Shown one piece after another: positions 30,434 through 53,738 of a stretch of DNA of 64,000 nucleotides. How positions within the stretch are numbered: position 1 is the stretch's first letter; each line of letters opens with the position of its first letter. The position numbers and the translations under genes are program-made. Below the pieces are notes generated by a model, which worked only from the letters and a program-made list of their open reading frames with translations, did no database searches and was not told the DNA's origin. The DNA is from Hyphomicrobiales bacterium (GTDB taxonomy: Bacteria; Pseudomonadota; Alphaproteobacteria; Rhizobiales; Xanthobacteraceae), in the NCBI GenBank assembly GCA_017305715.1, contig JAFKKG010000030.1, positions 3,728 to 67,727 on the forward strand, written 5' to 3'.

Positions 30434-30532
30434 CGCTCTCTCCTTCAAGTCGGCATCGGGCAGGTGGATGATCCACGAAACATCGCCTGGCCCGGCCCAT
30501 CCTTATTACCCGCTGCGTCCGGGCCGCACGCT

Positions 30533-33213: not shown

Positions 33214-33223
33214 CGGTGTCTCC

Positions 33224-34573
33224 TCAGTTGGCGATTTCGGCCGCAAGACCGGTATGAATCGCGCCCGCCCGGAAAGGATCGTGGCGAAGCGCGCGCAGGA
33301 TGAACGGGATATTGGTCTTCACGCCCTGGACCTCGAAATCCGCCAGAGCCGCCGCGAGAGTGTCGAGCGCCTCGTCGCGCGTGGCGCCATGCGCGATGAC
33401 CTTGGCCAGCATCGGGTCGTAGAAGGGCGTAACCTCGCAGCCCGTGGCATAGCCGGTCTCGACCCTCAATCCCGGTTTCGGCGAACAGGGCCGGAACTGC
33501 TCGAGCCGCCCGGGCGAGGGCATGAAGCTTTGCGGGTCTTCGGCGTAGATGCGGGCTTCAACGGCATGGCCGTCGAGGGAGATCTCCTTGGGCAGGACAT
33601 CGGAGATCGCCGTGCCGGCGGCGAGACGGAGCTGCGCCTTCACGATGTCGACGCCGGTGACCATCTCGGTGACGGCATGCTCGACCTGAAGACGGGTATT
33701 CATCTCGAGAAAGGAGAAGCTGCCGTCATCGGCCCGCAGCATCTCGACCGTGCCGATATTATCGTAGCCGAGCCCGGCCAGGATGCCCGTCGCGATATCG
33801 GCGATGGCGCGGAGCGGATCGCGGGGAAGCGCCGGGGCGGGCGCCTCCTCGACGACCTTCTGATGCCGGCGCTGGAGCGAGCAATCCCGCTCGAAGAGAT
33901 GGCGCGCTGCACCGTATTTGTCGGCGAGCAGCTGGAACTCGATGTGACGCGGCCGCGCGAGATAGCGTTCGAGATAGACCTGGCCGTTGCCGAAGCTGCG
34001 GGTTGCGAGGGAACGTGCACGCTCGACGCCGCGGGACAGGCTGGCCTCGTCCTGGGCGACGATCATCCCGATGCCGCCACCGCCGAGGGCCGGCTTCACG
34101 AGGACGGGATAACCGATCTGCCGGGCGGCGGCGGCGAAGTCGCCTCCTTCCTGCAACAGCTCCGAGCCGGCCGCCACGGGCATGCCGTGGCGGCGCATCA
34201 GATCGCGCGCCTCGGTCTTGTGGCCCATCGCCTCGATCCATCGCGGCGATGGACCGATGAACGTCATTCCGGCGTCCGCGACCGCTTGCGCGAAGGCGGC
34301 GTTCTCCGACAGGAAGCCGTAGCCGGGATGGATGGCATCGGCGCCGCTCTCGCGGGCGATGGCGATGATCTTGTCGGCCCGCAAATAGCTTTCGCGCGCG
34401 GGTGCGGCGCCGACGCCAAAAGCCTGGGTCGCCGCCTGCAGATACGGCGCCTTCGCGTCGGCTTCCGAGAATATCGCCACGGATGCAATGTCGAGCTCGC
34501 CGAGCGCGCGGATGATCCGGGATGCGGCGGCGCCGCGATTGGCGACCAGTACCTTGTGGAACGGCCGTTTCAT
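33224..34573 (-). CDS. Biotin carboxylase subunit (stand-alone, no fused BCCP)
   Basis: VLVANRG, IHPGYGFLSENA, GGGGIGM, RDCSLQRRHQKVVEEAP, EMNTRLQVEH, YDPMLAK. Confidence 0.92.
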   Translation of the reverse strand: MKRPFHKVLVANRGAAASRIIRALGELDIASVAIFSEADAKAPYLQAATQAFGVGAAPARESYLRADKIIAIARESGADAIHPGYGFLSENAAFAQAVADAGMTFIGPSPRWIEAMGHKTEARDLMRRHGMPVAAGSELLQEGGDFAAAARQIGYPVLVKPALGGGGIGMIVAQDEASLSRGVERARSLATRSFGNGQVYLERYLARPRHIEFQLLADKYGAARHLFERDCSLQRRHQKVVEEAPAPALPRDPLRAIADIATGILAGLGYDNIGTVEMLRADDGSFSFLEMNTRLQVEHAVTEMVTGVDIVKAQLRLAAGTAISDVLPKEISLDGHAVEARIYAEDPQSFMPSPGRLEQFRPCSPKPGLRVETGYATGCEVTPFYDPMLAKVIAHGATRDEALDTLAAALADFEVQGVKTNIPFILRALRHDPFRAGAIHTGLAAEIAN

Positions 34574-35295
34574 GTGGTCGCTCCGGCGAGACGCTGCAGC
34601 TTTCCGCTGACGTTGGTGTCCTTCGCGATCGCGGCCGCGGCAAGCATGTCGGCGTCCGAGATATCGCGCAGCAGCTCCTTCAGCGAACGGAGGATTGTCC
34701 CGGAGGCGGCGAGCGCGTCGGCCAAGGCCGTCGTCTCGGCGCGGAGCGTCGCCTGCGGCACCGCCTTCACGAGGCCGAGCCGCATCGCGTCGTCTGCCGA
34801 GACCGGCTTGGCAGTGGCCAGGATCTCGAAGGCGCGCGCGTACCCGACGCGGCGCAGCAGGGGAGGTGCCACGAGAGCCGGTATCATGCCGTGGCGGATT
34901 TCGGGGAAGGACAGGATCGCGTCATCCGCGCACAGCGCCATGTCGCAAGCGAGAGTCAGGCCGAAGCCTGCTCCAAGCGCAAAACCATGGACCTCGGCGA
35001 TGACGGGCTTGCGGAGTTGCCACGGCGCGAGCAGCAGGCGCGACATCAACTCCGCATGATGGCCGATCGCCCCGGCATCCTTGAGGCCGCTTGCTTCGCG
35101 CAGGTCGGCTCCGGCCGAGAAGCCGGCGCCGGTGCCCGCGAGGACGACGACGTTGACCGTCTCGTCTCTTTCAGCCCGCTCGAATTCGCTTAGCAGGGCT
35201 TCGATCGTACGGTGATTCAGCGCGTTCCGTTTGTCCGGCCGGTTCAGCACCAATCGGCGCACCGCGCCGCTGTCATCGACGAGCAGCTCAGGCAC
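34570..35295 (-). CDS. Enoyl-CoA hydratase/isomerase family protein
   Basis: LNRPDKRNAL, FSAGADL, VHGFALGAG, FPEIRHG. Confidence 0.88.
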   Translation of the reverse strand: MPELLVDDSGAVRRLVLNRPDKRNALNHRTIEALLSEFERAERDETVNVVVLAGTGAGFSAGADLREASGLKDAGAIGHHAELMSRLLLAPWQLRKPVIAEVHGFALGAGFGLTLACDMALCADDAILSFPEIRHGMIPALVAPPLLRRVGYARAFEILATAKPVSADDAMRLGLVKAVPQATLRAETTALADALAASGTILRSLKELLRDISDADMLAAAAIAKDTNVSGKLQRLAGATT

Positions 35296-36859
35296 CGATC
35301 GGCTCCCGGCCTGCGGCCTCGCGGCCGGCAATGCGGCCGCCGATCATGCACTCGGCGAGATTGCCGCCGCTGAGATAGAGATGGCCGAAGACCGATCCCA
35401 ATTCGCCGGCGGCGTAGAGGCCGGGGATCGCCTCGCCGAACGGGTTGAGGACTTCTTGCCGGACGTTGTGGACCGGCCCGCCTTGTGTGTTGATGACGAG
35501 CGGCCAGACCTGTCCGACATAGAAGGGCGGCGTATCGAGCGGCACCATGGTGTCGGGACGCCGGCCAAAGCCTTCGTCGTCGCCGGCGGTGCAGGCCCGA
35601 TTCCAGGTCGCGATCTCCTGGTTCAGGATCTCGGGATCGACTCCGATGCCTTGCGCCAACGCGTCCCAACTGTCGAACCGCCGGAAGAATCCGAGTTCGA
35701 TCTCCCGGGAATTATCGGCACTCCATTCGTACCAGCCGTCACGCCCGTTGATCGCGCAGCGTCCGAGCGGATACATCCGGCGACCCTTCTCGTCGAAGAC
35801 GATATGAGCGGGGATGCGGGGGAAGTCCTGGATCTTCGAATCGTAGAGATCGAGCGGACGAACGCCGAAATCGCCGGGGTAGGGCGGATATTCGTCCATG
35901 AAGCGGCGGCCGGTCTTGTCGAGAAGAATCCAGGCGAGCCGCGGGAGTTGCTTGCCTCCGGCCGGACGTCCCTGCTGGTCGACGACGCCGAGATCCGAGG
36001 TGCTCTCCGGATGTCCGGGATGCCACATCGGAATCGCCTTGAGATACAAACCATAGGGATAGGACGGATCCGGGTGACGGAAGCCGTAAGGTCCGTGATA
36101 GTGCCACATGTGCCAGAGCGCGGCCCCGACCTCCTGGGCCATCGCGATACCGTCGCCCGTATTGCCGAGGAACGAAGCCGGGATCACGGGATCGGCCTGC
36201 AGGAAATTCTGCTTCATTTCGGAATTCGCCTCGAAGCCGCCACAGGCGAGAATGACGCCGCGTCGCGCGCGAACGCGGCGCTGCTGTCCGTCCGCTTCGA
36301 CCACGACGCCGCAGACCCTGGCTCCCTCGCGGATCAGGCGCCGGACCGGGTGTCCCAGGTGGACGGCAATGGCGCGGGTCTGCATATTGTCTTCGAGGAC
36401 CTTGAACAGTCGGCATCCCGGCCGAATTCCGCGCACCGCGTGGAAGGAGGACGCGCCTTCGATCGCCGGGACCTCCGCCACCTCGCAGTAACCGAGCGCT
36501 TCCGAACCCGGCAGCGGATAATTGCCTCTTGCCGGCGTGACCTTCACGGTGGCACCGCTCACCTCGGCAAGCGTGCGCACCCAGTCGGAGACTTCTGTCA
36601 TGCCGTCCGCAAGGACGCGCAGCAGGTCATCCGGCGTCCGTCCGCCGCAGGTCGCCTTGAGATAGTCGAAAGCGGCATCGGCCTCGAATGCGATACGGAT
36701 TCCGCCGGCCGACACGATCGAGAGACCGCCGGGATCGGGCATCTTCTCAAAGACGGCGACCTGCGCTCCGGCATCGTGCGCCGCGATGGCAGCAGCCGCT
36801 CCCGCGGCGCCGAGGCCGACCACGACGACATCGACTTCCAGCTCCGTCATGTCTGTCAC
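35288..36859 (-). CDS. FAD-dependent oxidoreductase, FAD_binding_2 family (3-ketosteroid dehydrogenase/fumarate reductase flavoprotein-like)
   Basis: DVVVVGLGAAG, VILACGGFEAN, NTGDGIAMA, NTQGGP, IPGLYAAGE, GGNLAECM. Confidence 0.85.
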   Translation of the reverse strand: MTDMTELEVDVVVVGLGAAGAAAAIAAHDAGAQVAVFEKMPDPGGLSIVSAGGIRIAFEADAAFDYLKATCGGRTPDDLLRVLADGMTEVSDWVRTLAEVSGATVKVTPARGNYPLPGSEALGYCEVAEVPAIEGASSFHAVRGIRPGCRLFKVLEDNMQTRAIAVHLGHPVRRLIREGARVCGVVVEADGQQRRVRARRGVILACGGFEANSEMKQNFLQADPVIPASFLGNTGDGIAMAQEVGAALWHMWHYHGPYGFRHPDPSYPYGLYLKAIPMWHPGHPESTSDLGVVDQQGRPAGGKQLPRLAWILLDKTGRRFMDEYPPYPGDFGVRPLDLYDSKIQDFPRIPAHIVFDEKGRRMYPLGRCAINGRDGWYEWSADNSREIELGFFRRFDSWDALAQGIGVDPEILNQEIATWNRACTAGDDEGFGRRPDTMVPLDTPPFYVGQVWPLVINTQGGPVHNVRQEVLNPFGEAIPGLYAAGELGSVFGHLYLSGGNLAECMIGGRIAGREAAGREPIGA

Positions 36860-38391
36860 GGCATGATCCGTCGCTTGAAGCCGGGCACGACGCGATCGGC
36901 CGTGCAGTCCAGGGTATGAATGATGACCTGGCGCGTTTCGGCCGGATGGATGACGTCGTCGATCAGTGCCATCTCGGCGGCGAGATAGGCGGAGGATTCC
37001 GCTTCGACTTTCTTGAGAATCTCGGCGCGCTTGGCGGCCGGATCGGCCGCTCTGGCGATCTCCTTGCCGTGGACGAGTTCGACGCCGGCTGCGGTGCCCA
37101 TCACGTCGAACCGCGCCGTCGGCCAGGCCACGATGCGGTCCGGCTTGGTCGATTTGCCGCCGAGCGCGATGTAGGCGAGCCCGATCGCCTTGCGCAGGAT
37201 GATGGTGACTTTCGGTGCGGTCGCGCTGACGATCGAATTCAGCAGTTGCGAGGCCAGCACGACCATGCGCCGATCCTCGATATCCGGGCCGACCAGGAAG
37301 CCGGGACAATCGACCAATGAAATAATCGGGATGTGGAAAGCGTCGCAGATGTCGATGAACCGACGCGCCTTGACCGCTGCCTTCTCGTCGAGCGCGCCGG
37401 CGAGCTGCATCGGCTGGTTCGCCACGAGGCCAACCGATCGGCCCCCGATCCGAGCCCAGGCCGTGATCAGATTCGGGCCGTAGTTCTCCTTGTATGGCGT
37501 GAGCTTGCCGTCATCGACGATGAGGCGCAGGAGCTTGCGCATGTCGTAGGCGCGCCGATGATTGTCAGACACGAGCGCGGTGATCTCGCGCCGTCCTTCT
37601 TCGGTGTCGATGGGCGCGGGGCTCGATGGCCGGATCGGCGGAAACTCGTCGCTGCTCGACGGAAAATAGGACAAAACCTCGCGGATCGCGGCGATGCTGT
37701 CGGCATCCGTCTCACCGAGATGGTCGGCGAGGCCGCGCTCGGTCGCCACCTTGTCGGCGCCGCCGATCTCTTCGGCACTGACCTCGAGGCCGATGCCGAC
37801 GCGCACCACGGCGGGACCCGACATTCCCATGAAGCCGGTTCGTGTGATGGTGACGAAATCGGATTGCGCTGCCGTGAAGGACGGTCCGCCGAAACAGGCG
37901 CCCATCAGGCCCGCCACCTGCGGCACCACGCCCGAGAGCAGAAAATGTTCGCGGAAGCGGACGCCCATGCCCGCGGCGACCGCGCCGTTGTTCTCCTGGA
38001 AACGCCCGGCGCCAGCCTCCTGCAACGCGATGAAGGGCTTGCGATGCGCAAGGGCGAGTTCGCGAATCCGCGCAATCTTTGCTTCCGCCACCCGTCCGCG
38101 GGTGCCGGCGAGAACGGTGGCATCCTCGGACACCACGTAGACGATCCGTCCGTCGATCCGCCCCGAACCTGCCACGAGACCGTCCGCCGGGGTCCGGTCG
38201 CGCAGGCCAGGATGCTGACTGCGACCCTGGACACCGATTTCCTGGAAGCTCCCGTTATCGAGGAGCAAATCGAGACGCTCCCGCGCGCTGAGCTTTCCCG
38301 CGGCGTGCAGACGTTCGAGAGCCTCCGGGCCGCCCATGAGTCGGGCCACCCTTCTTCTCTCGGCAAGTTCCTCCTCGGTCGCTTTATCCAT
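36856..38391 (-). CDS. Acyl-CoA carboxylase carboxyltransferase subunit (PccB/LiuB-like)
   Basis: GKLSARERLDLLLD, PADGLVAG, AGTRG, VANQP, DCPGFLVG, IDDVIHPAETR. Confidence 0.9.
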   Translation of the reverse strand: MDKATEEELAERRRVARLMGGPEALERLHAAGKLSARERLDLLLDNGSFQEIGVQGRSQHPGLRDRTPADGLVAGSGRIDGRIVYVVSEDATVLAGTRGRVAEAKIARIRELALAHRKPFIALQEAGAGRFQENNGAVAAGMGVRFREHFLLSGVVPQVAGLMGACFGGPSFTAAQSDFVTITRTGFMGMSGPAVVRVGIGLEVSAEEIGGADKVATERGLADHLGETDADSIAAIREVLSYFPSSSDEFPPIRPSSPAPIDTEEGRREITALVSDNHRRAYDMRKLLRLIVDDGKLTPYKENYGPNLITAWARIGGRSVGLVANQPMQLAGALDEKAAVKARRFIDICDAFHIPIISLVDCPGFLVGPDIEDRRMVVLASQLLNSIVSATAPKVTIILRKAIGLAYIALGGKSTKPDRIVAWPTARFDVMGTAAGVELVHGKEIARAADPAAKRAEILKKVEAESSAYLAAEMALIDDVIHPAETRQVIIHTLDCTADRVVPGFKRRIMP

Positions 38392-38424
38392 GCGATCCCC
38401 TCACTGTGGGTGCAATACTACAGG

Positions 38425-38450
38425 ATTGTGTGTATATCAAGGGACACAAT
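38425..38450. promoter_or_regulatory. Putative operator in divergent promoter region (MocR-motif site A)
   Basis: ATTGTGTG-N10-GACACAAT inverted repeat in an AT-rich 134-bp spacer. Confidence 0.55.
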
Positions 38451-38525
38451 TTGGGGAATATGATCTAGACAAAGATCGAAATTGTTAGCTAGTGATGGAG
38501 ACAGGCGTGACCCAGGGGAGCAATT

Positions 38526-38744
38526 GTGTCGACAGAGATTAAGGCAGAGATCGCCGGCATCGTCTTCGAGATTCTCGTTGAGCAAGGCGCTCGTATCTCG
38601 GCCGGCGGGACAATTCTGGTGATCGAATCGATGAAAATGGAAATCCCGGTGGATAGCCCGGGTGAGGGCGTCGTCGCCGAACTTTGCGTCTCCGCCGGCG
38701 ACGTCGTCGCTGTCGGCCAGGTTCTGGCGCGGATCAAGGAGTGA
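38526..38744 (+). CDS. Biotin carboxyl carrier protein (stand-alone)
   Basis: IESMKMEIPV biotinylation motif; 72 aa; GTG start after GGGGAG. Confidence 0.9.
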   Translation: MSTEIKAEIAGIVFEILVEQGARISAGGTILVIESMKMEIPVDSPGEGVVAELCVSAGDVVAVGQVLARIKE

Positions 38745-38747
38745 TTC

Positions 38748-39914
38748 ATGGACTTTCAATTCACCGATCGGCAGCGCGAACTCATCGATCACGCCGGTGA
38801 GCACTATCAACGGTCGCTCAAGCAACTGGCTTCCGATCACAGCCGCGAGGGTATCGCGCGGTTGCGCGGCAAGATGGCCGAGGCGGGGCTGCTCGGTCTC
38901 AATATGCCGGAGGAGTATGGCGGGGCCGGCCTGCCTCTTCTCGATACGCTCCTCGTCATCCAGAAGCTGCAATCCTGCGCCTCGATCGTCGGCGCTCTGG
39001 CGCATCGCAGTTCGACCGGGGCGATCGGGGCCATCCTCGAACTTGGGACACCGCAGCAAAAGTCTTTCTTCGTCGGCGGCGTCTGCCGCGGCGAGTTCGG
39101 CGTGAGCATCGGCATCACGGAGCCGGAAGCCGGGTCGGCTGCGACGGCGATGAAAACCGCTGCGCGTCACGACGGCAACGATACCGTCGTGCTGAACGGC
39201 AAGAAGCAGTTCGTCAGCTTCGTCGACCACAACAGCTTCACGCTCACCTATTGCCGTTTCGGCAGCACGGGAAAGCCCGCCGATATCGGAGCGGTGATCG
39301 TGCCGCATGATGCGCCGGGCTTCTCGCACAGCCAGGGCGGGATCAACATGGCGGATGAGAGGCTGTTCGAGCTGTTTTTCGATGACTGCCGCGTGCCCGC
39401 CCAGAATGTGCTTCTGAACGGCAATGCCTTCGGGCGGCTGATCAGCGTCTATAACGCCGAACGACTCGGGAGCATCGCGCGGATGCTCGGATCGGCGCAA
39501 GCCTCGTTCGAACTCGCCGTCGACTACGCGAAAGAGCGGCGTCAGTTCGGCCGCGAGATCGCGGACTTCCAGGGCGTGCAATGGATGCTGGCCGACATGA
39601 AGGTGAAGCTCGAGGCCGCCCAGCTGCTGACCTATCGGGCGGCGTCGAATGCCGGCCACGGCCTGCCGAGCCGCAGCGAGGTCTCGATCGCGAAGGTCTA
39701 TACCGCGCAGGCGGCTCGCGAGATCTGCGACGATGCGCTCCAGATCCATGGCGCCAATGGCTACATGAAGGAATTCCCGCTCGCCCAACGCTACGCCGAA
39801 GTCCGTGGCGGCTCGATCTATGGTGGGACGATCCAGATCCACAAGAACATGATCGCGGGCGATCTGCTGGGCCGCTCGAACAACCAATGGAAGCGCGCCG
39901 AGAAGGCGGGCTGA
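38748..39914 (+). CDS. Acyl-CoA dehydrogenase family protein (motifs resemble the 3-sulfinopropionyl-CoA desulfinase clade)
   Basis: ITEPEAGSAA, RRQFGREIADFQGVQWMLADM, LQIHGANGY; SSTGAIGAI and YNAERLG; IYGGT rather than IYEGT. Confidence 0.85.
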   Translation: MDFQFTDRQRELIDHAGEHYQRSLKQLASDHSREGIARLRGKMAEAGLLGLNMPEEYGGAGLPLLDTLLVIQKLQSCASIVGALAHRSSTGAIGAILELGTPQQKSFFVGGVCRGEFGVSIGITEPEAGSAATAMKTAARHDGNDTVVLNGKKQFVSFVDHNSFTLTYCRFGSTGKPADIGAVIVPHDAPGFSHSQGGINMADERLFELFFDDCRVPAQNVLLNGNAFGRLISVYNAERLGSIARMLGSAQASFELAVDYAKERRQFGREIADFQGVQWMLADMKVKLEAAQLLTYRAASNAGHGLPSRSEVSIAKVYTAQAAREICDDALQIHGANGYMKEFPLAQRYAEVRGGSIYGGTIQIHKNMIAGDLLGRSNNQWKRAEKAG

Positions 39915-39918
39915 CGCC

Positions 39919-41466
39919 GTGGCCGGCGATATCGATGTCGGTGCGCTTGCAGGATTGATGGCGCAGCGTCCGCGTTCGCTCGCTGTTTTCGACATCCGCG
40001 AGGCAGGCGAAGCCGAGCAGGGGCATCTGCCGTTTGCGACCTTCCTGCCGCGCCGACTGATCGAATGGCGGATCGGAGAACTCGTTCCGTCCACCGCACA
40101 GGACATCGTCGTCTATGATGACGGCGCGGGGGACGGACGTGCGGCGCTTGCCGCCGCAACGCTCGGCGAATTCGGCTATCGCGCTGTCCGTATCCTCACC
40201 GGTGGCCTCGGCGCCTGGAGGGCTGCGGGCCGTCCCGTCGCAACCGGCGTGAACGTTCCCAGCAAGCGTTTCGGGGAAGAGATCCTCGAACATGACGGCG
40301 TGAAGTCGATCGATGCCGATCGTCTCGCGCAGATGCAAGCCGCCGGCGAGACCTTCGAGCAATGGGATGTGCGCACGCCGGCCGAGTTCGGCCGCGCTAC
40401 GCTGCCCGGCAGCCGCAATGTTCCAGGCGTCGAGATCGCCGGCCGGGCGGCGGAGGCGGCGCGCGACGGCCGGCTGGTCGTGGTTCACTGCGCGGGGCGG
40501 ACGCGTGGGGTGATCGCCGCCGCGACCCTCGCGCTGCTTGGCGTTGAGCGGGTCGTCACGCTGGAGAACGGCACGATGGGCTGGCGCCTTTCCGGCCGCA
40601 GCCTCGTGCCGGGAGAACGCAGCGGGGCGTCGTCCGATGGCGACGCCGCCGTCGATGGTGCCGTCGCCAATGCCTTGGCGGATGCGAGTGGCGTGTTGCG
40701 TCTCGCGCCCGCTGAAGTCCGGCACCGGGCCAGCCGGCAAGCGTCGGAGCCTGTCATCCTCGTGGATGTGCGGAGCGAGGAAGCCTATTTGGCGGGGCAT
40801 ATCGCGTCCTCCTGCTCGCGGCCCGGCGGGCAGCTCATTCAGTGCACGGACGAAGTTCTCGCGGTTGAAGCGGTACCCGTCATTCTCGTCGACGACGGTA
40901 ACGGGCGCGCGGTCATGGCCGCCCATTGGCTGCGCCGGATGGGATTTCCGGAGGTCGCATTGCTCGAAGGAGGTATTCCGGCCTGGCGCGCCGCGGGCCT
41001 TCCACTCGCAAGAGGTCCGGCCGCGATCCCGACATGGCTCATCGGCCTGCGCGACAGGGTCCCTTCGATGGCACCGAACCGCCTCGACGGGACGTCCCGC
41101 ATCGTGCTCGACGTCGGCACGAGCCGCGACTTCAAGAAGGGTCACATTCCCGGCGCGCGCTGGCTGCCCCGGGGTTGGCTCGAGGCGCGGCTCGGCGAGA
41201 TCGAGCATCACGATCGCGAGATGGTTGTGACGGCCGCGGATGAAAGCCAAGCTATCCTGGCGGCCGCGACGCTGCTCCGGCTCGGACACCGCGCCAGTTG
41301 GCTCGCGGGCGGAAATGCCGGCTGGGTCGCGCAGGGCGGGACCCTGGAGTCGACCGAAGATCTTGCTCTCGATCTGCCGCCGGATGTCGTCGATCCGCCC
41401 TATCTGAAGGGAGAGGCGGGGATGCGGGCCTATCTCGAATGGGAGATCGCCCTGACGGAGCGATAA
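39919..41466 (+). CDS. Four-domain rhodanese-type sulfurtransferase (PA2603-like)
   Basis: Four repeats of D[IV]R/DVG...GH[LI]P; VNVPSKRFGE; HCAGRTR active-site loop in domain 2. Confidence 0.85.
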   Translation: MAGDIDVGALAGLMAQRPRSLAVFDIREAGEAEQGHLPFATFLPRRLIEWRIGELVPSTAQDIVVYDDGAGDGRAALAAATLGEFGYRAVRILTGGLGAWRAAGRPVATGVNVPSKRFGEEILEHDGVKSIDADRLAQMQAAGETFEQWDVRTPAEFGRATLPGSRNVPGVEIAGRAAEAARDGRLVVVHCAGRTRGVIAAATLALLGVERVVTLENGTMGWRLSGRSLVPGERSGASSDGDAAVDGAVANALADASGVLRLAPAEVRHRASRQASEPVILVDVRSEEAYLAGHIASSCSRPGGQLIQCTDEVLAVEAVPVILVDDGNGRAVMAAHWLRRMGFPEVALLEGGIPAWRAAGLPLARGPAAIPTWLIGLRDRVPSMAPNRLDGTSRIVLDVGTSRDFKKGHIPGARWLPRGWLEARLGEIEHHDREMVVTAADESQAILAAATLLRLGHRASWLAGGNAGWVAQGGTLESTEDLALDLPPDVVDPPYLKGEAGMRAYLEWEIALTER

Positions 41467-41473
41467 TGCAAAC

Positions 41474-42856
41474 TCAGATGATGGTCGCCGACATGATCGG
41501 CCGGCTGTCGAGCATGCCCTTCAGTGTGATCAGGCCCCGATGCAGCAGGTTATCCCCGGCGCCTGGACTGAGTGACAGCCGTACCGCGCCAGGCGGGCGT
41601 ACGCCGTCGGTTGCGAAATTGTCGGCGGCGACCACGGCCACGCCCTTTCGGCGCGCGGCCGCCTCGAAATCCAGTGGCCGCCATTCCGGCGGCAGGCTCA
41701 ACCACATATGGACCGAAGCCGGATGAGAGCGAACCCGATCGGGTCCGAGAAAGTCGACCGCGAAGGCGACACGCTCGGCGATGATCTCGCGCATTCGCGC
41801 GATCACCCGGTCAAGTTCGGGATGGCTGAGGATGCTCGATACCATCTCGCCGACGAACGGCGTGGGGCCGAGCGTCATCGCGTGGAGCGTGTTTGACAGG
41901 GCCTCGTTGAGCGCGGGCGGGCAGACGATAAACCCGGTCCGGAAAGCCGGGCTCAGCCCCTTGGCGAGGCCGGTCGAATAGACGGTTCTCTCGGGCGCGA
42001 GCGCAGCGAGCGGTGCCGGGCGCTCCGCCAAAATTGCGGCCTGGGCGTCGTCCTCGAACAGCGTGAGCCTGAGCTCTTCGGCGACATCCGCGATCGCCTG
42101 CCGGCGTTCGAGGCTCATCGTGGCGATCGTCGGATTGTGCAGGGTTGTTTGAAGCGCGACGACGCTGGCGCCGGTTCGCGCGACGGCTTCGCGCAACGCC
42201 TCCGGACGCATGCCCTCCCGGTCCATGCCGACGCCGACGAGGCGCAGTCCCTGCAGTCCCGCAAGCGCCTTCAGGCCCGGATAGGTCAGTTCATCCGTCA
42301 GGATTGTGTCGCCGGGCCCGGCGAGTGTCGCCAGCGTGACATGGATCGCCTGCTGTACGCCGGCGCAGATCAAGACGTCTTCCGCACGCACCGAGAGCCC
42401 CAGCCGGCCAAGCCATTCGGCTGCGACGGCGCGATGGGCCGGGAGCCCGGCCGCGGGCGGATATTTCTGGAGCGGCAGAAGGGCTGCGCGCTGGGCCAAG
42501 GTCGTCAACGACGCCGAGACGAGATCGCCAAGGCCTGCGATTGGCGCGCGGTAGCAGGAAAAATCGACCGTACGCTCGAGTGCGGCAGGCCGGAATTCCA
42601 GTCGCTGTCCGACATTCCGTCCCGCTTTCACGAAGGTGCCACGACCGACCTCGCCTGTGACGAGATTCTTCTCGCTGGCCAGCGCATAGGCGCGCGTCAC
42701 CGTTCCGACCGTGACACCCAGACTTTCGGCCAGATCCCGTTGGGGCGGCAGCTGAGTGCCAGGAGGCAATTCGCCATTGTCGATCGCTTGCGCGATCGCA
42801 GTCGCGATCACGATGTAGCGGGGGCCTTCGAGATCGCGGATATCAGGTGTCCACAT
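41474..42856 (-). CDS. MocR/GabR family regulator (GntR wHTH plus PLP aminotransferase-like domain)
   Basis: GPRYIVIA, LPPQRDLAESLGVTVGTVTRAY, GEVGRGTFV, TLHNPT, FEDD, GLAKGLSPAFRTG. Confidence 0.92.
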   Translation of the reverse strand: MWTPDIRDLEGPRYIVIATAIAQAIDNGELPPGTQLPPQRDLAESLGVTVGTVTRAYALASEKNLVTGEVGRGTFVKAGRNVGQRLEFRPAALERTVDFSCYRAPIAGLGDLVSASLTTLAQRAALLPLQKYPPAAGLPAHRAVAAEWLGRLGLSVRAEDVLICAGVQQAIHVTLATLAGPGDTILTDELTYPGLKALAGLQGLRLVGVGMDREGMRPEALREAVARTGASVVALQTTLHNPTIATMSLERRQAIADVAEELRLTLFEDDAQAAILAERPAPLAALAPERTVYSTGLAKGLSPAFRTGFIVCPPALNEALSNTLHAMTLGPTPFVGEMVSSILSHPELDRVIARMREIIAERVAFAVDFLGPDRVRSHPASVHMWLSLPPEWRPLDFEAAARRKGVAVVAADNFATDGVRPPGAVRLSLSPGAGDNLLHRGLITLKGMLDSRPIMSATII

Positions 42857-42937
42857 GGGTATGTCCGTCGCCGTGCCTCTGAGAGAAAAATCTGGCGCAT
42901 AGGGAATGCATCTTAGCATATAATGACATTGACGTCG

Positions 42938-42968
42938 ATTGTATCCATGTCCTAATCTTGGATGTATC
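42938..42968. promoter_or_regulatory. Putative MocR operator (site B) between divergent mocR and CoA ligase genes
   Basis: ATTGTATC at 42938 and a second TGTATC 23 bp downstream. Confidence 0.5.
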
Positions 42969-43013
42969 GATCCAGCCTCGGGGGGCTGGGAGGGACAGTA
43001 CGACGGATTGTGG

Positions 43014-44660
43014 ATGGCGGCACCAGGAAATCCCTTTGTCGGCGCAACCTACGGCTCGGCCTTGAGGTGGCTCGCGGATCAATTCGGCCCGCGCGAGGCG
43101 TTGGTCTTCGGAGGCGAGAGATACACGTTTGCCGAGGTGAAACGTCGGGTCGACGAGGCCTCCCGCCGCTTCGAGGCGCTCGGTTTGCGGCCCGGCGATC
43201 GCGTGGCGTTGTGGCTGCCCAATCGGCCGGAATTCCTCTGGTGCTGGCTGGGTGCATCGCAAATCGGCTTGATCACCGTCGTGCTTAATACGCGCCTCAA
43301 GCTGCCGGAGGTCCGCTATCAGCTCGCGCAATCCGATAGTAATGCGCTGATCATTCCGGGTCGCGGTTCATTTCGCGATTTCCCCGCCGAAATTGCCGAA
43401 TTGTGCCCGGAGGTGCGGGTACAGTCGGCGCAAGCTCTGGCGACGGCCGAATTACCCGGACTTCGGCGTATCGTGACGCTCGATACCGGGCTCGGCTGGC
43501 CGGGACTGGTCGAATGGTCGCCATTCGGCCGCGCGACAGAGGCGGCGGCGCCCCCTGCCTATGCGGAAAATCCCAACGAGCCCGCCCTGATTTCCTATAG
43601 CTCCGGGACCACGGCGCTTCCGAAGGGGGCGTTGATTACACATTGCGTGTGGCGCAAGGCTTTCGACATCGGCGAGCGCGCTGATCTCACCTCCGAAGAT
43701 CGCCTTTATCTCTGCATCCCGCTGTTCGGTTCGATGGCGATGATGAATGGTGTCCTGCCGTTTTGGGCCCGCGGTGCGTCGGTCGTTCTCGCGGAACGGT
43801 TCGAGGTGCGCGAATTCCTGCGGGGCGTTTCGCAAGAGCGCTGCACAGCGACGCATTTCCTGCCGCCGATGGTCGAATCGCTCGTCGCCTCGTCCGAGCG
43901 CGCCGATTTCGACCTGTCGCGCCTGCGACTTGGCTGGGTGCTCAGCAGTGAGCGCCGAATTTTGGAATTGGTCGCGCACGATCTTGCCGTTCCCGGCATG
44001 ATGACCGGATACGGCCTCACGGAAACGACGACCGTTCTGACGCGCAACCGGTGGGATGATCCACTCGAGACGCGGATCACGACGCAGGGCTATGCGCTGC
44101 CGGACGTCGAACTGCGTGTCGTCGATCCCGAATCGGGCCGCGATGTCGCGACGGGCGACACAGGGGAGATCTGGGCCCGCGGCTATTGCATCACGCCCGG
44201 CTATTTCAGGAAGCCTGAAGAGAGCAGCAAGGCGCTAACGCCGGACGGATGGTTCAAGACGGGCGATGGCGGCTCGCTGGATGAGACGGGGCGGCTGACG
44301 TTTCGCGGGCGCCTTGGCGACGGTTACAAAAGCCGCGGTTTCAACGTCTCGCCGGCCGAGATCGAAGCCGTGCTCCTCGAGCACGCCGACGTCGAGGCGG
44401 CTGCCGTGGTCGGCGTCGCGCATCCGCGTTGGGGGCAGGTGGGCATCGCCTTCGTGGTCCCAGTCGAAGGCCGCGCTGCGGATCCGGCGGAACTCGCCAA
44501 ATATCTCAAGCCGCGCCTGTCGTCGTTCAAGCTTCCGGAACTGATCACGTGCGTGTCCGAACTCCCGCTGACGGCCGGGACCGGAAAAATCCAGAAATTC
44601 GTTTTGCGGGCGGAGGGAGAGCGTCTGCTCGCCGGCCGGCTGGCCGTCTCGCCGGGATGA
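43014..44660 (+). CDS. Acyl-CoA synthetase (AMP-forming)
   Basis: YSSGTTALPKG, GYGLTET, GEIWARG, WFKTGDGG, GFNVSPAEIE, KIQK. Confidence 0.9.
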   Translation: MAAPGNPFVGATYGSALRWLADQFGPREALVFGGERYTFAEVKRRVDEASRRFEALGLRPGDRVALWLPNRPEFLWCWLGASQIGLITVVLNTRLKLPEVRYQLAQSDSNALIIPGRGSFRDFPAEIAELCPEVRVQSAQALATAELPGLRRIVTLDTGLGWPGLVEWSPFGRATEAAAPPAYAENPNEPALISYSSGTTALPKGALITHCVWRKAFDIGERADLTSEDRLYLCIPLFGSMAMMNGVLPFWARGASVVLAERFEVREFLRGVSQERCTATHFLPPMVESLVASSERADFDLSRLRLGWVLSSERRILELVAHDLAVPGMMTGYGLTETTTVLTRNRWDDPLETRITTQGYALPDVELRVVDPESGRDVATGDTGEIWARGYCITPGYFRKPEESSKALTPDGWFKTGDGGSLDETGRLTFRGRLGDGYKSRGFNVSPAEIEAVLLEHADVEAAAVVGVAHPRWGQVGIAFVVPVEGRAADPAELAKYLKPRLSSFKLPELITCVSELPLTAGTGKIQKFVLRAEGERLLAGRLAVSPG

Positions 44661-44741
44661 GCGAGAAGGCCGAGTTCAACCGAATCGACCGCAGTGTCGG
44701 GAAAAAGCAAACCGGGGCGTAACGCTCGCAAGGAGGGAAGA

Positions 44742-46283
44742 ATGTTCAGTCGCCGCGATTTCGGAGCTGCGATCGGTGCGGCCGCAGTTCTTGGAACGAT
44801 TGGCAGGGCCAATGCGCAATCCAGCCCCAAGCCTGCCGTCGACAAGGACACCCTTGTTATCGCGCTGGAGAAGGAGATTCAGAGTCTCGACGCCCTGGTG
44901 ACAGCCAGCGGCGATTCGCAGCGCTATGCGCTCCAACTGTTCGATTCGCTCTACGGATTCGATCTCAAGGGCCGGACGGTCCCCCGCATGGCGACGGAGG
45001 TGAAGGTCTCCGACGACGGGCTCAGCTATACCTACAAGCTTCGTCCCGGCATTCGCTTTCACAATGGCGATCCGCTGACCTCCGAGGACGTCAAGTTCAC
45101 GATGGAGCGGGTGATCGATCCCGCCGCCAAGAGCACGCGACGGCCGTTCTTCGCGCCGATCATCGCCGGCGTCGAGACGCCCGACCCGTTGACGGTCGTC
45201 TTCAAGCTCAAGCAGTCCGACGGCGCCTTCCTCAACAAGATCGCCGGCTTTCTGTTCATCGTCCCGAAGGCCTACACCAGCGGGTTGCCCAACACGGATG
45301 CCTTTGCCTCTGCGCCTATCGGCTCGGGTCCCTACAAGTTGAAGCGCCACAATATCGGTCAGACGCTCGAGCTGGAGCGGTTCGAGGATTTCTATGGCGA
45401 GAAGCCGGGCGTCAAAAACCTCATCATGAAGATGATCCCCGAGGGATCGACACGCGTGAATGCGCTGCTGACGGGGGAGGTCGATCTCGTCGTGCAGGCG
45501 CCGCTCAACGAAAAGGAACGGCTCAGCAAGACGCCGGGGCTGAAGACGCTGACCAACCCGGTCTCCGCCCCGATGCATGTCAGGCTCTATTCAGACGATG
45601 CCTCCTTGCCGGTCTCCAAGCGCGACGTGCGTCTCGCCCTGAACCACGCTCTTGATTCCAAAGCGATCATCCGCTCGGTTTATTACGGGGTCGGTCAGCC
45701 GATGGGAACGTTCATCTCGGCATTTTACCCTTACGGGTCAGATCCCGACACCAAGCCCTATGCGTACGATCCCAAGAAGGCCCGCGAGCTTCTCAAGAAG
45801 GCGGGCTATCCGGATGGTTTCCAGCTCAAGCTCTACAGCGCCAACGACCATCCCAAGGAATTGGCGGAAGCCATCGCCGCCTATTGGGGCCAGGTCGGCG
45901 TGAAGACCGAAATCCTGCGCATCGACTACGCCGCCTGGAGCCGGCTCAACAATACCCACAAGAGCGGCCCGGCGACGATCACGCAATTCACCAATGCCAT
46001 CTACGATCCGATCCACCCGGTGGCCGGCTCTTTCTCGAAGAACGGGACCTGGTCCAACTACTACAATCCGGAAGTCGAAGCGCTGATCGCGAAGCTTGAT
46101 TCCACGGTCGGTGCCGAGAAACGCGGCGCCGTCTTCCGCGAAATCGGGCGGCTGCTTCACGACGATGCGGCGGCGGTCTTCATCACCGAGCTGTTTCACC
46201 TGTTCAGCCACAAGAATGGGCTGCAATGGAGCATGCAGGAGGGGTCCGGATTCCTGAACCTCCGGCAAGTGTCCTGGTCGTGA
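44742..46283 (+). CDS. ABC substrate-binding protein, family 5, paralog 1 (Tat-like SRRDF signal)
   Basis: FHNGDPLTSEDVKF, IGSGPYK, RLNNTHKSGP; AGGAGG RBS. Confidence 0.9.
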   Translation: MFSRRDFGAAIGAAAVLGTIGRANAQSSPKPAVDKDTLVIALEKEIQSLDALVTASGDSQRYALQLFDSLYGFDLKGRTVPRMATEVKVSDDGLSYTYKLRPGIRFHNGDPLTSEDVKFTMERVIDPAAKSTRRPFFAPIIAGVETPDPLTVVFKLKQSDGAFLNKIAGFLFIVPKAYTSGLPNTDAFASAPIGSGPYKLKRHNIGQTLELERFEDFYGEKPGVKNLIMKMIPEGSTRVNALLTGEVDLVVQAPLNEKERLSKTPGLKTLTNPVSAPMHVRLYSDDASLPVSKRDVRLALNHALDSKAIIRSVYYGVGQPMGTFISAFYPYGSDPDTKPYAYDPKKARELLKKAGYPDGFQLKLYSANDHPKELAEAIAAYWGQVGVKTEILRIDYAAWSRLNNTHKSGPATITQFTNAIYDPIHPVAGSFSKNGTWSNYYNPEVEALIAKLDSTVGAEKRGAVFREIGRLLHDDAAAVFITELFHLFSHKNGLQWSMQEGSGFLNLRQVSWS

Positions 46284-46298
46284 TGCGTTTTGCGCCAA

Positions 46299-46344
46299 AT
46301 TGTCACTAGCATTGTATCGATAAGCTAGATACAATTGACACAAT
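46299..46344. promoter_or_regulatory. Putative MocR operator array (site C)
   Basis: Perfect ATTGTATC-N9-GATACAAT (46311-46335) flanked by ATTGTCAC (46299) and GACACAAT (46337). Confidence 0.65.
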
Positions 46345-46356
46345 CAGAGAGCCAAA

Positions 46357-47160
46357 ATGGCTCTCCAATCGGATGAGACAATGTCAGGGCGGAAACACGG
46401 GCGCGTCGCGCTCATCACCGGTGGCGCCGGTGGCATCGGTTTCGCGACAGCCGAGCGGCTGGCGCGCGACGGCGCCGCAATCGCGATTTGCGATCTCGAC
46501 GGCGCGGCGGCGCAGGAAGCCGCCGCCCGGATCAATGCGAGCCATGGCGTGCCGGCGCGGGGCTATCAGGCCAATGTCGGCGAGCCCGATGCGGTCGAAC
46601 AACTCGTCGCGGAGGTGGTGCGGGAGCTCGGATCGCTCGATATCCTCGTGAACAATGCGGGGGTCACCCGCGACAACCTCGTCCACAAGATGAGCCTGCA
46701 GAACTGGGACGACATCATGTTCGTCCATCTGCGCGGGGCGTTCCTGTGCAGCAGCGCCGCGCAGCGGGTTATGGTGGAGCGCGGCTGGGGGCGGATCGTG
46801 AATCTGTCCTCGACGTCCGCGCTCGGCAATCGCGGTCAGGTCAACTACTCGACGGCCAAGGCGGGCTTGCAGGGCTTCACGCGATCGCTCGCGCTCGAAC
46901 TCGGCCGCTTCGGCGTTACGGTGAACTGCGTCGCACCGGGCTTCATCGACACGGAAATGACACGCAAGACGGCGACGAGGCTCGGAAAAGATCCGGAGGC
47001 CTACAAGGCGGAGCGCGCGAAGGGCATCGCGGTCGGGCGTGTCGGGGTGCCGGCCGACGTCGCCGCCGTGATCGCTTTCCTGGCCGACGACGAGGCGTCC
47101 TACGTGTCCGGCCAGGTCATCTATGTCAGCGGCGGGCCGGAAACCCGTCGCGGCGGCTGA
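46357..47160 (+). CDS. SDR oxidoreductase, FabG-like 3-oxoacyl-CoA/ACP reductase
   Basis: ITGGAGGIG, LVNNAG, NYSTAK, VAPGFIDT; start may be 46381. Confidence 0.88.
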   Translation: MALQSDETMSGRKHGRVALITGGAGGIGFATAERLARDGAAIAICDLDGAAAQEAAARINASHGVPARGYQANVGEPDAVEQLVAEVVRELGSLDILVNNAGVTRDNLVHKMSLQNWDDIMFVHLRGAFLCSSAAQRVMVERGWGRIVNLSSTSALGNRGQVNYSTAKAGLQGFTRSLALELGRFGVTVNCVAPGFIDTEMTRKTATRLGKDPEAYKAERAKGIAVGRVGVPADVAAVIAFLADDEASYVSGQVIYVSGGPETRRGG

Positions 47161-47171
47161 GAGGGGACATC

Positions 47172-48713: not shown

Positions 48714-48738
48714 TGGGTATCGAAGGCGAGATGCGGCC

Positions 48739-50560: not shown

Positions 50561-50562
50561 GA

Positions 50563-53703: not shown

Positions 53704-53712
53704 CCACGTCGA

Positions 53713-53738
53713 GCGGAGGCGGATCACGCCGCCTCCGC
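53713..53738. other. Intercistronic GC-rich hairpin
   Basis: Perfect 10-bp stem GCGGAGGCGG-N6-CCGCCTCCGC with no U-tract. Confidence 0.55.

What the first reader, a model, noticed from the sequence alone, without database searches (positions are those of the whole stretch)
38748..41466. Desulfinase-like acyl-CoA dehydrogenase fused in an operon with a four-domain rhodanese, but no thiol dioxygenase
From memory, the motifs LDT..VI, SxxGAIGAI, EP.AGSAA and L.S.YNA[QE]R.G resemble the 3-sulfinopropionyl-CoA desulfinase (Acd) of dithiodipropionate degraders. This protein has Glu at the position where Acd has Gln (YNAER), lacks the MCAD-type Glu (IYGGT) and appears to lack the Acd Arg/Cys. The rhodanese is of the type found next to 3-mercaptopropionate dioxygenase in Pseudomonas, with Cys only in domain 2 (HCAGRTR). 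No cupin thiol dioxygenase is present, so sulfur oxidation may be done by the flavin monooxygenases instead.
Basis: inference. Interest (0 to 1): 0.68.

Follow-up and report, generated by a model that had tools for sequence, protein, structure and literature searches.

The report
Acyl-CoA dehydrogenase paired with rhodanese
A flavoprotein gene that faintly resembles a known sulfur-removing enzyme is more likely a normal dehydrogenase, and with the sulfur-transfer gene next to it it belongs to a widespread, unstudied gene cluster that probably breaks down a sulfur-containing organic acid.

Summary
38748-39914 encodes a 388-aa acyl-CoA dehydrogenase (ACAD). Four bases later, 39919-41466 encodes a 515-aa protein of four rhodanese domains whose only catalytic Cys lies in domain 2 (HCAGRTR).

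The desulfinase reading is only partly supported. The ACAD scores 279 bits on NCBI's 3-sulfinopropanoyl-CoA desulfinase model (cut-off 600), below four other ACADs of the same genome. It lacks Acd's Arg84 and Cys122. Where Acd has Gln246 it has an invariant Glu, at the catalytic-base position of isovaleryl-CoA dehydrogenase. Three genomes carry this ACAD and a separate true Acd. With broad sampling the two share only a loose superclade.

It is best read as a true dehydrogenase with an LCAD/IVD-type base. It forms a tight, uncharacterised orthogroup in 67 alpha- and betaproteobacterial species. It always sits in a CoA-dependent cluster (ligase, MaoC hydratase, SDR, thiolase). Sulfur enzymes accompany that cluster: the rhodanese, SfnB-like and SsuD-like monooxygenases, and in some variants a PhsA/SoeA-type molybdoenzyme or a 3-mercaptopropionate dioxygenase.

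The substrate is unknown, probably an anionic organosulfur acid.

The parts
38748..39914 (+). Acyl-CoA dehydrogenase (P0001, 388 aa). Uncharacterised orthogroup with a helix-G catalytic Glu238, Gly359 at the MCAD-Glu position, and an invariant His86-Arg87 pair.
   Evidence: Pfam and NCBIfam; PDB alignments; family alignment; trees; AF2 model pLDDT 85.8 and Foldseek.
39919..41466 (+). Four-domain rhodanese (P0002, 515 aa). Catalytic Cys191 (CAGRTR loop) only in domain 2. No signal peptide is apparent from reading the N-terminus (no predictor was run).
   Evidence: Pfam gives four stretches; 1yt8 matches over the full length; family alignment A2.
38526..38744 (+). Biotin carboxyl carrier protein (72 aa, ESMKME). 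First gene of the BCCP-ACAD-rhodanese operon.
   Evidence: ORF and sequence; NCBIfam NF004547 72.4 bits.
38392..38525 (.). Divergent promoter region with two copies of ATTGTGTC, the putative MocR operator.
   Evidence: Motif found 8 times in the window against 1.58 expected, 6 of them in three promoter regions.
36856..38391 (-). Carboxyltransferase, PccB type (alpha-carbon carboxylating).
   Evidence: Pfam; PDB 3n6r_B 355 bits against MCC/GCC beta subunits at 176-208 bits.
35288..36862 (-). FAD_binding_2 flavoprotein of the fumarate/urocanate-reductase and KstD type. Always next to the carboxyltransferase in alphaproteobacterial loci.
34570..35331 (-). Crotonase-type enoyl-CoA hydratase.
33224..34573 (-). 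Biotin carboxylase (no BCCP domain).
32044..33246 (-). Thiolase (acetyl-CoA C-acyltransferase type).
31128..32095 (-). Split MaoC-type (R)-hydratase: N-type subunit at 31589-32095 and catalytic subunit at 31128-31592.
   Evidence: The MaoC-N gene lies directly after the ACAD in most alphaproteobacterial loci.
30083..31234 (-). NADPH-dependent FMN reductase (30533-31234) and ABM monooxygenase (30083-30448).
41474..42919 (-). MocR-type regulator, EhuR-like (403 bits, below the cut-off of 480).
42939..44660 (+). Acyl-CoA ligase. The most constant neighbour of the ACAD, present in 64 of 67 loci.
44694..52517 (+). Two family-5 binding proteins, an SDR (46357-47160), two permeases and two ATPases (Dpp/Opp-type ABC importer).
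52468..54881 (+). ACAD-fold SfnB/DszC-like protein (52468-53703) and an SsuD-like luciferase-type monooxygenase (53823-54881).
   Evidence: An SfnB-like orthologue lies within 10 kb of the ACAD in 38 of 67 loci.

Best explanation
The ACAD is a genuine FAD-dependent alpha,beta-dehydrogenase. Its proton-abstracting base is Glu238 on helix G, the arrangement of isovaleryl-CoA and long-chain acyl-CoA dehydrogenases. The MCAD-type Glu is replaced by Gly359.

It would oxidise a CoA thioester made by the cluster's acyl-CoA ligase. The resulting enoyl-CoA would pass to the split MaoC hydratase, the SDR and the thiolase.

An invariant His86-Arg87 pair lies one helical turn beyond the site where Acd (Arg84) and glutaryl-CoA dehydrogenase (Arg94) bind an anionic substituent. 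This suggests a substrate with a distal carboxylate, sulfinate or sulfonate.

The operon (BCCP-ACAD-rhodanese) is one of three units that share a putative MocR operator. The cluster as a whole probably catabolises an imported organosulfur carboxylic acid. Its sulfur would leave as sulfite or sulfane sulfur, through the SfnB-like and SsuD-like monooxygenases with a flavin reductase. The single-Cys rhodanese would then handle it by persulfide transfer or thiosulfate formation.

Shown: the residues, their conservation, the gene order and the phylogeny. Inferred: dehydrogenase activity, an anionic sulfur-bearing substrate, and the role of the rhodanese.
For: - Glu238 falls in the column of human IVD E254 (LDLER in 1ivh) through the genome's own IVD orthologue, by MAFFT and by BLASTP. 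PMC12369846 and PMC8360864 state that IVD uses this other Glu as its base. The PDB holds an MCAD T255E/E376G mutant built with this arrangement (1egd).
- H86, R87, E238, R239 and Y358-G359-G360 are invariant in 66-67 species. Position 83 is never Arg and position 122 is never Cys.
- Neighbours within 10 kb, out of 67 loci: ligase 64, MaoC-N 55, SDR 51, rhodanese 45, SfnB-like 38, thiolase 27. MaoC-N or thiolase directly follows the ACAD.
- Most families around it in the tree also carry the helix-G Glu.
- Sulfur context: the rhodanese lies within 10 kb in 38 of 54 loci with full flanks. The cluster has an SsuD-like LLM (288 bits) and flavin reductases. A roughly 1000-aa PhsA/SoeA-type molybdoenzyme lies directly downstream in 5 of 5 genomes of one variant. 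A true 3-mercaptopropionate dioxygenase and a family III CoA-transferase abut the cluster in Variovorax sp. KK3.
- The operator motif ATTGTRTC is shared by three promoter regions.
Against: - No activity data exist and the substrate is unidentified.
- The nearest sister representatives, P0247 and P0278, have Asn and Gln at position 238. The base is therefore labile in this part of the tree.
- The AF2 model is poorly defined at 355-360, the loop over the active site, and side-chain geometry could not be inspected.
- Variovorax KK3 has Mdo and a CoA-transferase beside this ACAD but no true Acd. That leaves room for a desulfinase-like role.
- The ligase's best solved relatives are feruloyl- and coumarate-CoA ligases, not a thio-acid ligase.
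- The carboxylase and FAD_binding_2 module remains unexplained.
Confidence: 0.6

Rival explanations
1. The protein is a non-redox C-S-cleaving enzyme on the ACAD scaffold. Glu238 would remove the alpha-proton of a 3-thio-, 3-sulfinyl- or 3-sulfonyl-substituted acyl-CoA. The sulfur group would then leave by beta-elimination, or be hydrolysed off as in Acd. This gives acryloyl- or propionyl-CoA for the cluster's PccB-type carboxylase, and a sulfur species for the rhodanese.
For: - It shares a broad superclade with Acd, and Acd is the top Foldseek hit.
- The immediate sister lineages lack any catalytic Glu, so non-dehydrogenase chemistry evolves readily here.
- Variovorax KK3 has Mdo and a CoA-transferase beside this ACAD and no true Acd.
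- A propionyl-CoA-carboxylase-type carboxyltransferase and a BCCP are in the same regulon.
- Heine et al. proposed a beta-elimination variant for TDP-CoA (PMC6370202).
Against: - The defining Acd residues are absent (Arg84, Cys122, Gln246).
- The Glu plus Gly-Gly pattern is that of working dehydrogenases (IVD, LCAD).
- A hydratase, SDR and thiolase follow the gene, as expected after a dehydrogenation.
- The betaproteobacterial clusters lack the carboxylase.
Confidence: 0.15
2. It is a dehydrogenase for a sulfur-free hindered or dicarboxylic acid, for example a branched or cyclic acid. The rhodanese and monooxygenases would belong to neighbouring sulfur-scavenging functions and not to the same pathway.
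For: - 16 of 54 full-flank loci have no rhodanese within 10 kb.
- Split MaoC hydratases and SCP-x/DUF35 thiolases are typical of bulky substrates.
- The window is a sulfur-scavenging island in which juxtaposition could be incidental.
- The ligase resembles aromatic-acid ligases.
Against: - The rhodanese is in the same operon, directly after the ACAD or after MaoC-N, in 32 loci across two classes of bacteria.
- Three independent sulfur enzymes recur in different cluster variants.
Confidence: 0.17
3. It is an orthologue of 3-sulfinopropanoyl-CoA desulfinase (Acd/AcdA), with Glu tolerated in place of Gln246.
For: NF042439 is the top NCBIfam hit. Some UniRef records of family members carry that name. 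Acd is the top Foldseek hit.
Against: - It scores 279 bits against a cut-off of 600, and four other ACADs of the genome score higher.
- It is 35-37% identical to true Acds, against 41-44% to unrelated nearest representatives.
- Separate true Acds exist in three carrier genomes.
- It lies outside the Acd clade, which has support 99-100.
- Arg84, reported as essential (from my memory of Schuermann et al. 2015), is absent.
Confidence: 0.03

Closest known systems
3-Sulfinopropionyl-CoA desulfinase Acd/AcdA (Advenella mimigardefordensis DPN7, Variovorax paradoxus TBEA6; PDB 5af7/5ahs; NCBIfam NF042439)
   Same: ACAD fold with FAD. Gly instead of the MCAD-type Glu. Shared local motifs (GAIGAI, EPxAGSAA, YNAxR). 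Same broad superclade, and the nearest solved structure by a small margin.
   Different: 35-37% identity. 279 bits against a cut-off of 600. Ala/Gly/Ser instead of Arg84, Gly instead of Cys122, and an invariant Glu instead of Gln246. A separate orthogroup that coexists with true Acd in some genomes. No Mdo or Act partner in this genome.
Isovaleryl-CoA dehydrogenase and long-chain acyl-CoA dehydrogenase (catalytic base on helix G: IVD E254, LCAD E261)
   Same: Position of the catalytic Glu (xxERL). Gly at the MCAD E376 position. The Y-G-G loop is as I recall it in LCAD and as seen in two ACADs of this genome that look LCAD-like.
   Different: Only 31% identical to the genome's own IVD orthologue. 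Different clade. An invariant His-Arg pair lines the presumed acyl pocket.
Four-domain rhodanese 1yt8 (Pseudomonas aeruginosa, from memory PA2603 beside the 3-mercaptopropionate dioxygenase gene)
   Same: Same four-domain architecture and C-terminal tail, aligned over the full length (234 bits). Family members lie beside CDO_I genes (L081; P. protegens).
   Different: Here it is partnered with an ACAD, a hydratase and ligases, with no dioxygenase in the genome. No function has been tested for any member.
3,3'-Thiodipropionate (TDP) cluster of Variovorax paradoxus TBEA6 (PMC6370202)
   Same: CoA activation of a thio-dicarboxylate. Two unassigned ACAD homologues. A pair of hydratases (Ech-20/Ech-30), which the authors suggest may form a MaoC-like heteromer, is essential for growth on TDP. 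The dehydrogenase step is still unassigned.
   Different: The TBEA6 genome could not be reached, so orthology is untested. The TBEA6 cluster also holds mdo, act and acdA, which this genome lacks.
Glutaryl-CoA dehydrogenase (Arg94 binds the distal carboxylate)
   Same: A basic residue on the same pocket-lining helix hints at an anionic substrate end.
   Different: GCD keeps the MCAD-type Glu (YEG). Its Arg aligns 4-5 residues before Arg87. No sign of decarboxylation chemistry here.

Membership tests
3-Sulfinopropanoyl-CoA desulfinase (Acd, NF042439) | Score at or above NCBI's curated cut-off (600 bits) | tested here: not met
   278.8 bits. Four other ACADs of the same genome score 292-310 bits. 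True Acds score 623-681 bits.
3-Sulfinopropanoyl-CoA desulfinase (Acd, NF042439) | Arg84, reported as essential for desulfination (Schuermann 2015, from memory) | tested here: not met
   Aligns with A83. The position is G, A or S in 65 of 65 aligned species sequences.
3-Sulfinopropanoyl-CoA desulfinase (Acd, NF042439) | No catalytic base: Gln at position 246 and Gly at 366 | tested here: not met
   Glu238 at the 246 position, invariant. Gly359 at the 366 position is shared.
3-Sulfinopropanoyl-CoA desulfinase (Acd, NF042439) | Cys122 (AICI[TS]EP) | tested here: not met
   Gly122 (SIGITEP).
3-Sulfinopropanoyl-CoA desulfinase (Acd, NF042439) | Falls inside the Acd clade | tested here: not met
   The Acd clade has support 100 and Acd plus the Arg84 group 99. 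The query family is eight nodes away. The sister position in the sparse tree did not survive broader sampling.
3-Sulfinopropanoyl-CoA desulfinase (Acd, NF042439) | Sulfite release from 3SP-CoA without dehydrogenase activity | not testable with these tools
   Needs an enzyme assay.
Acyl-CoA dehydrogenase (working dehydrogenase) | N-terminal, middle and C-terminal ACAD domains and the ACAD fold | tested here: met
   Pfam PF02771, PF02770 and PF00441. AF2 pLDDT 85.8; Foldseek TM 0.85-0.89 to many ACADs.
Acyl-CoA dehydrogenase (working dehydrogenase) | Catalytic Glu/Asp at the MCAD-376 or the IVD-254 position | tested here: met
   E238 aligns with IVD E254 and is invariant.
Acyl-CoA dehydrogenase (working dehydrogenase) | Enoyl-CoA-consuming enzymes as partners | tested here: met
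   MaoC hydratase, SDR and thiolase are conserved next to it.
Acyl-CoA dehydrogenase (working dehydrogenase) | Substrate-dependent flavin reduction and electron transfer to ETF | not testable with these tools
   Needs an enzyme assay. ETF genes were not looked for.
Isovaleryl-CoA dehydrogenase (orthologue) | Orthology to IVD (GAG loop, high identity) | tested here: not met
   31% identity. The genome has its own IVD, 553 bits to 1ivh. Only the base position is shared.
Rhodanese sulfurtransferase, four-domain 1yt8 type | Four rhodanese domains, colinear with 1yt8 | tested here: met
Rhodanese sulfurtransferase, four-domain 1yt8 type | Six-residue active-site loop with a catalytic Cys | tested here: met
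   C191-AGRTR in domain 2 only, invariant in 16 homologues.
Rhodanese sulfurtransferase, four-domain 1yt8 type | Neighbouring thiol dioxygenase (Pseudomonas-type pairing) | tested here: not met
   None in the genome. The pairing is seen for a homologue in L081.

The most novel reading that the evidence does not exclude
The cluster encodes an undescribed CoA-dependent route for a thioether, sulfone or sulfo-dicarboxylic acid, for example 3,3'-thiodipropionate or a natural analogue. This ACAD would act on the thia-acyl-CoA, either by dehydrogenation followed by hydration and collapse of the hemithioacetal, or by Glu-driven beta-elimination of a sulfinate after S-oxygenation by the SfnB-like enzyme. 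The four-domain rhodanese, and in some lineages a SoeA/PhsA-type molybdoenzyme, would dispose of the released sulfur. Together these would replace the Mdo-Act-Acd route.
Probability: 0.2. Interest if true: 0.7.

Novelty: new member of a known kind. Interest (0 to 1): 0.42.

Why it matters
Some automatic annotation already labels members of this orthogroup '3-sulfinopropanoyl-CoA desulfinase' (UniRef names). The residue and phylogeny tests here argue that label is wrong.

The family marks a gene cluster conserved in at least 67 alpha- and betaproteobacterial species, from soil and plant-associated to marine bacteria. Its substrate is unknown, and its parts point to CoA-dependent breakdown of an organosulfur acid. 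Identifying that substrate would add a route to the organic sulfur cycle. It could also supply the missing dehydrogenase step of thiodipropionate-type catabolism.

The surrounding ACAD radiation switches repeatedly between Glu and non-Glu at the base position. That makes it a natural test set for how desulfinases and other non-redox enzymes arise from dehydrogenases.

Tried and rejected
- **Sister to Acd.** A first tree, with the genome's 31 paralogues, Acds and Bcd, placed the family sister to Acd (UFBoot 88). Adding 42 representatives of the nearest 50%-identity clusters dissolved this.
The carboxyltransferase is PccB-type, not MCC/GCC-type.
- **Orthology with the unassigned ACADs of V. paradoxus TBEA6.** Two Variovorax genomes with AcdA had no ACAD neighbours.
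- **Substrate hints from other cluster proteins.** The best solved relatives of the ligase, binding protein, SfnB-like protein and FAD protein were uninformative.
- **Context of the sister representative P0247.** The contig was too short.
- **The Acd structure and identification papers** (PMC4461206, PMC3911169) are not held. Their content is cited from memory only.
- **Thiophene-2-carboxylate as substrate.** It was suggested by Xanthobacter tagetidis and Aquamicrobium among the carriers, but other Xanthobacter species carry the cluster too, and I saw no molybdenum enzyme of the kind I recall for that pathway in those loci.
- **PimC/PimD-like heteromer with the SfnB-like protein.** The scores were weak (65-80 bits).
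Full report
**What is there.** The window is high-GC (about 63%) and close to Bradyrhizobium; the ACAD is 96% identical to one in B. lablabi. ORF 38748-39914 (+) gives a 388-aa protein with the three ACAD Pfam domains. ORF 39919-41466 (+, GTG start) gives a 515-aa protein with four rhodanese stretches. The genes are separated by four bases, with an AAGGCGG ribosome-binding site inside the ACAD's last codons and no terminator between them. They are adjacent, not fused. A 72-aa biotin carboxyl carrier protein (ESMKME; 38526-38744) sits three bases upstream of the ACAD, so the operon is BCCP-ACAD-rhodanese.

It pairs Acd R84 with A83, C122 with G122 and Q246 with E238, and the loop IYGGT has Gly where MCAD has its Glu. 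In the rhodanese only domain 2 has an active-site Cys (C191 in HCAGRTR). In 16 homologues down to 41% identity, that Cys and its GRTR loop are invariant and the other three domains never have one. The best solved relative is the four-domain protein 1yt8, aligned end to end. PF05995 finds nothing in the whole 7.45-Mb genome. Nor does tblastn with a true 3-mercaptopropionate dioxygenase.

**Is it a desulfinase?** NCBI's equivalog model for 3-sulfinopropanoyl-CoA desulfinase is the top hit, but at 278.8 bits against a cut-off of 600, barely above acryloyl-CoA reductase AcrC at 256.5. Four other ACADs of the same genome score higher on that model, at 292-310 bits. Of twelve genomes that carry this ACAD, three also carry a separate gene that passes the cut-off (623-681 bits): Oceanibacterium hippocampi, B. 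lablabi and Imbroritus primus. Those true Acds, like the Advenella protein, read GRI, AICITEP and YN[AS]QR. The query is 35-37% identical to them and 33.6% to a clostridial butyryl-CoA dehydrogenase.

**Phylogeny.** A first tree with the genome's own paralogues made the family sister to Acd (UFBoot 88). I then searched 1.84 billion cluster representatives. The family collapsed to one representative (681 bits). Dozens of other families (455-261 bits) ranked above the Acd representative (260 bits). A tree with 42 of these places the family with P0247/P0278 (support 97) and then P0249/P0257 (94). It is eight nodes from the Acd clade, which groups instead with three Arg84/Gln246 lineages (support 99). 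The common superclade has support of only 62. Among solved structures Acd is still the nearest by a hair (Foldseek E 1e-27 against 1e-25; TM about 0.88 for all ACADs), because nothing else from this superclade has been solved. Every defining feature of Acd that could be tested is not met.

**What the residues predict.** From memory of Schuermann et al. (2015; not held), Acd lacks dehydrogenase activity because positions 246 and 366 carry Gln and Gly instead of a base, and Arg84 is essential. PMC8360864 states that IVD uses another Glu and that the desulfinase lacks the Glu altogether. PMC12369846 identifies that Glu (E286 in the precursor, E254 in the mature protein) as the IVD base, about 120 residues before the MCAD position. 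The genome's own IVD orthologue (553 bits to 1ivh) aligns its LDYER Glu with E254 of LDLER. Both MAFFT and BLASTP align that Glu with E238 of the query. The query therefore has the IVD/LCAD arrangement: helix-G Glu plus Gly at the MCAD site. Many ACADs of this genome share it, as do most families around the query in the tree. The engineered MCAD T255E/E376G mutant in the PDB (1egd) was built with this same arrangement. E238, R239 and Y358-G359-G360 are invariant in 66-67 species. H86-R87 is invariant too. It lies 4-5 residues, one helical turn, after the column of Acd R84 and of the Arg in the genome's GCD-like protein. I infer that it binds a distal anionic group of the substrate.

**Context.** With the family alignment I fetched 67 loci from alpha- and betaproteobacterial species and mapped the window's proteins onto them. 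Counts within 10 kb of the ACAD, out of 67 loci:

| Neighbour | Loci |
|---|---|
| Acyl-CoA ligase | 64 |
| MaoC-N hydratase subunit | 55 |
| SDR | 51 |
| Carboxyltransferase | 45 |
| Rhodanese | 45 |
| FAD_binding_2 protein | 43 |
| SfnB-like protein | 38 |
| MaoC catalytic subunit | 34 |
| MocR regulator | 34 |
| Thiolase | 27 |

- Betaproteobacteria (Pandoraea, Variovorax, Pusillimonas, Paraburkholderia) have one long operon: SDR, binding protein, ligase, permeases, ATPases, SfnB-like, ACAD, thiolase, MaoC-N, MaoC. It is often followed by a ligase, the rhodanese and a second SfnB-like gene.
- Most Alphaproteobacteria have ACAD-MaoC-N-rhodanese, with carboxyltransferase and FAD protein genes diverging from it.
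- One variant uses a TRAP transporter, a family III CoA-transferase and a DUF35/SCP-x thiolase.

Among 54 loci with full flanks, the rhodanese lies within 10 kb in 38. It is directly after the ACAD in 8 and after MaoC-N in 24. In the window, the octamer ATTGTRTC occurs 8 times against 1.58 expected. Six copies lie in the three promoter regions of the cluster, which supports co-regulation by the MocR-type regulator. An ACAD followed by a hydratase, an SDR and a thiolase is the signature of a dehydrogenase step.

**Is sulfur really involved?** Four lines say yes.
- The rhodanese is embedded in the operon across two classes of bacteria.
- The cluster carries an SsuD-like monooxygenase (288 bits), an ACAD-fold SfnB/DszC-like protein and flavin reductases.
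- In one alphaproteobacterial variant (5 of 5 genomes), a roughly 1000-aa molybdopterin oxidoreductase lies directly downstream of ACAD-rhodanese-ligases. Its best match is thiosulfate reductase PhsA, which I recall as the subfamily that also holds SoeA. This agrees with an earlier follow-up on such an operon.
- In Variovorax sp. KK3 a family III CoA-transferase and a true 3-mercaptopropionate dioxygenase (216 bits to 3uss/4tlf) lie immediately upstream of the cluster and co-directional with it.

Homologues of the rhodanese also lie beside CDO_I in a Chloroflexota genome. The literature reports rhodaneses beside 3MDO in P. protegens and beside mercaptosuccinate dioxygenase in Variovorax and Advenella. 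Half of 30 carrier genomes have a CDO_I gene somewhere and half do not.

**What remains open.** The substrate is unknown.
- The carboxyltransferase is PccB-type (355 bits, against 176-208 for MCC/GCC). It therefore carboxylates an alpha-carbon, perhaps of propionyl-CoA or an analogue released by the pathway. It is absent from the betaproteobacterial clusters.
- The FAD_binding_2 protein resembles urocanate/fumarate reductases and KstD only weakly.
- The ligase and binding proteins gave no specific lead.
- The TDP cluster of V. paradoxus TBEA6 has two unassigned ACADs and an essential pair of hydratases (Ech-20/Ech-30) that the authors suggest may form a MaoC-like heteromer. The dehydrogenase for TDP-CoA is still missing (PMC6370202). 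The parallel is suggestive, but I could not reach that genome to test orthology.
- KK3 has Mdo and a CoA-transferase but no true Acd, and the sister lineages have lost the Glu. I therefore keep a non-redox C-S-cleaving role as the main rival.

**Verdict.**

| Reading | Probability |
|---|---|
| Working dehydrogenase with an LCAD/IVD-type base, in a conserved CoA-dependent pathway for an anionic organosulfur acid, with the rhodanese handling released sulfur | 0.60 |
| Non-redox C-S-cleaving enzyme on the ACAD scaffold | 0.15 |
| Dehydrogenase of a sulfur-free acid | 0.17 |
| True Acd desulfinase | 0.03 |

It is a new member of a known kind, of moderate interest mainly for the unassigned cluster it marks.

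Noticed in passing
window 38526-38744: A free-standing 72-aa BCCP gene is the first gene of the ACAD-rhodanese operon. The biotin carboxylase and the PccB-type carboxyltransferase are on the opposite strand, so one carboxylase is split across a divergent promoter.
   Followed up: partly
window 38443-38450, 38523-38530, 42938-42945, 46311-46344: ATTGTRTC occurs 8 times in the window against 1.58 expected by shuffling.
   Followed up: partly
L082 2335-2934 (Variovorax sp. KK3, just upstream of L053): A true 3-mercaptopropionate dioxygenase orthologue (216 bits to 3uss/4tlf; only 26.9 bits on PF05995) and a family III CoA-transferase sit directly upstream of the betaproteobacterial version of the cluster. 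That genome has no true Acd.
   Followed up: partly
L086 3970-6963 (downstream of L064); the same position in the genomes of L041, L042, L047 and L060: A roughly 1000-aa molybdopterin oxidoreductase (best NCBIfam match thiosulfate reductase PhsA, 214 bits) follows the ACAD-rhodanese-ligase operon, after two roughly 470-aa proteins with no family match.
   Followed up: partly
own genome, contig C51:25147-26685 (outside the window): An ACAD paralogue has neither catalytic Glu (NAFNTQR on helix G, GGG loop) and no Arg84. It may be another non-dehydrogenase on the ACAD scaffold.
   Followed up: no
proteins P0246, P0247, P0278, P0279, P0280 (cluster representatives): The nearest relatives of the family have Val, Asn, Gln or Gly at the helix-G base position and no MCAD-type Glu. 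These are several uncharacterised ACAD-fold lineages without an obvious base.
   Followed up: no
proteins P0244, P0245, P0248, P0250, P0252: Roughly 770-aa proteins made of two complete ACAD units in tandem rank among the best matches to the family profile.
   Followed up: no
L013 9331-9951 (Xanthobacter tagetidis): An HpaC-type flavin reductase gene lies between the BCCP and the ACAD. This reinforces that a two-component flavin monooxygenase belongs to the cluster.
   Followed up: no
AF2 model of P0001, residues 355-360: The GSIYGG loop over the active site is the only internal segment with pLDDT below 50.
   Followed up: no
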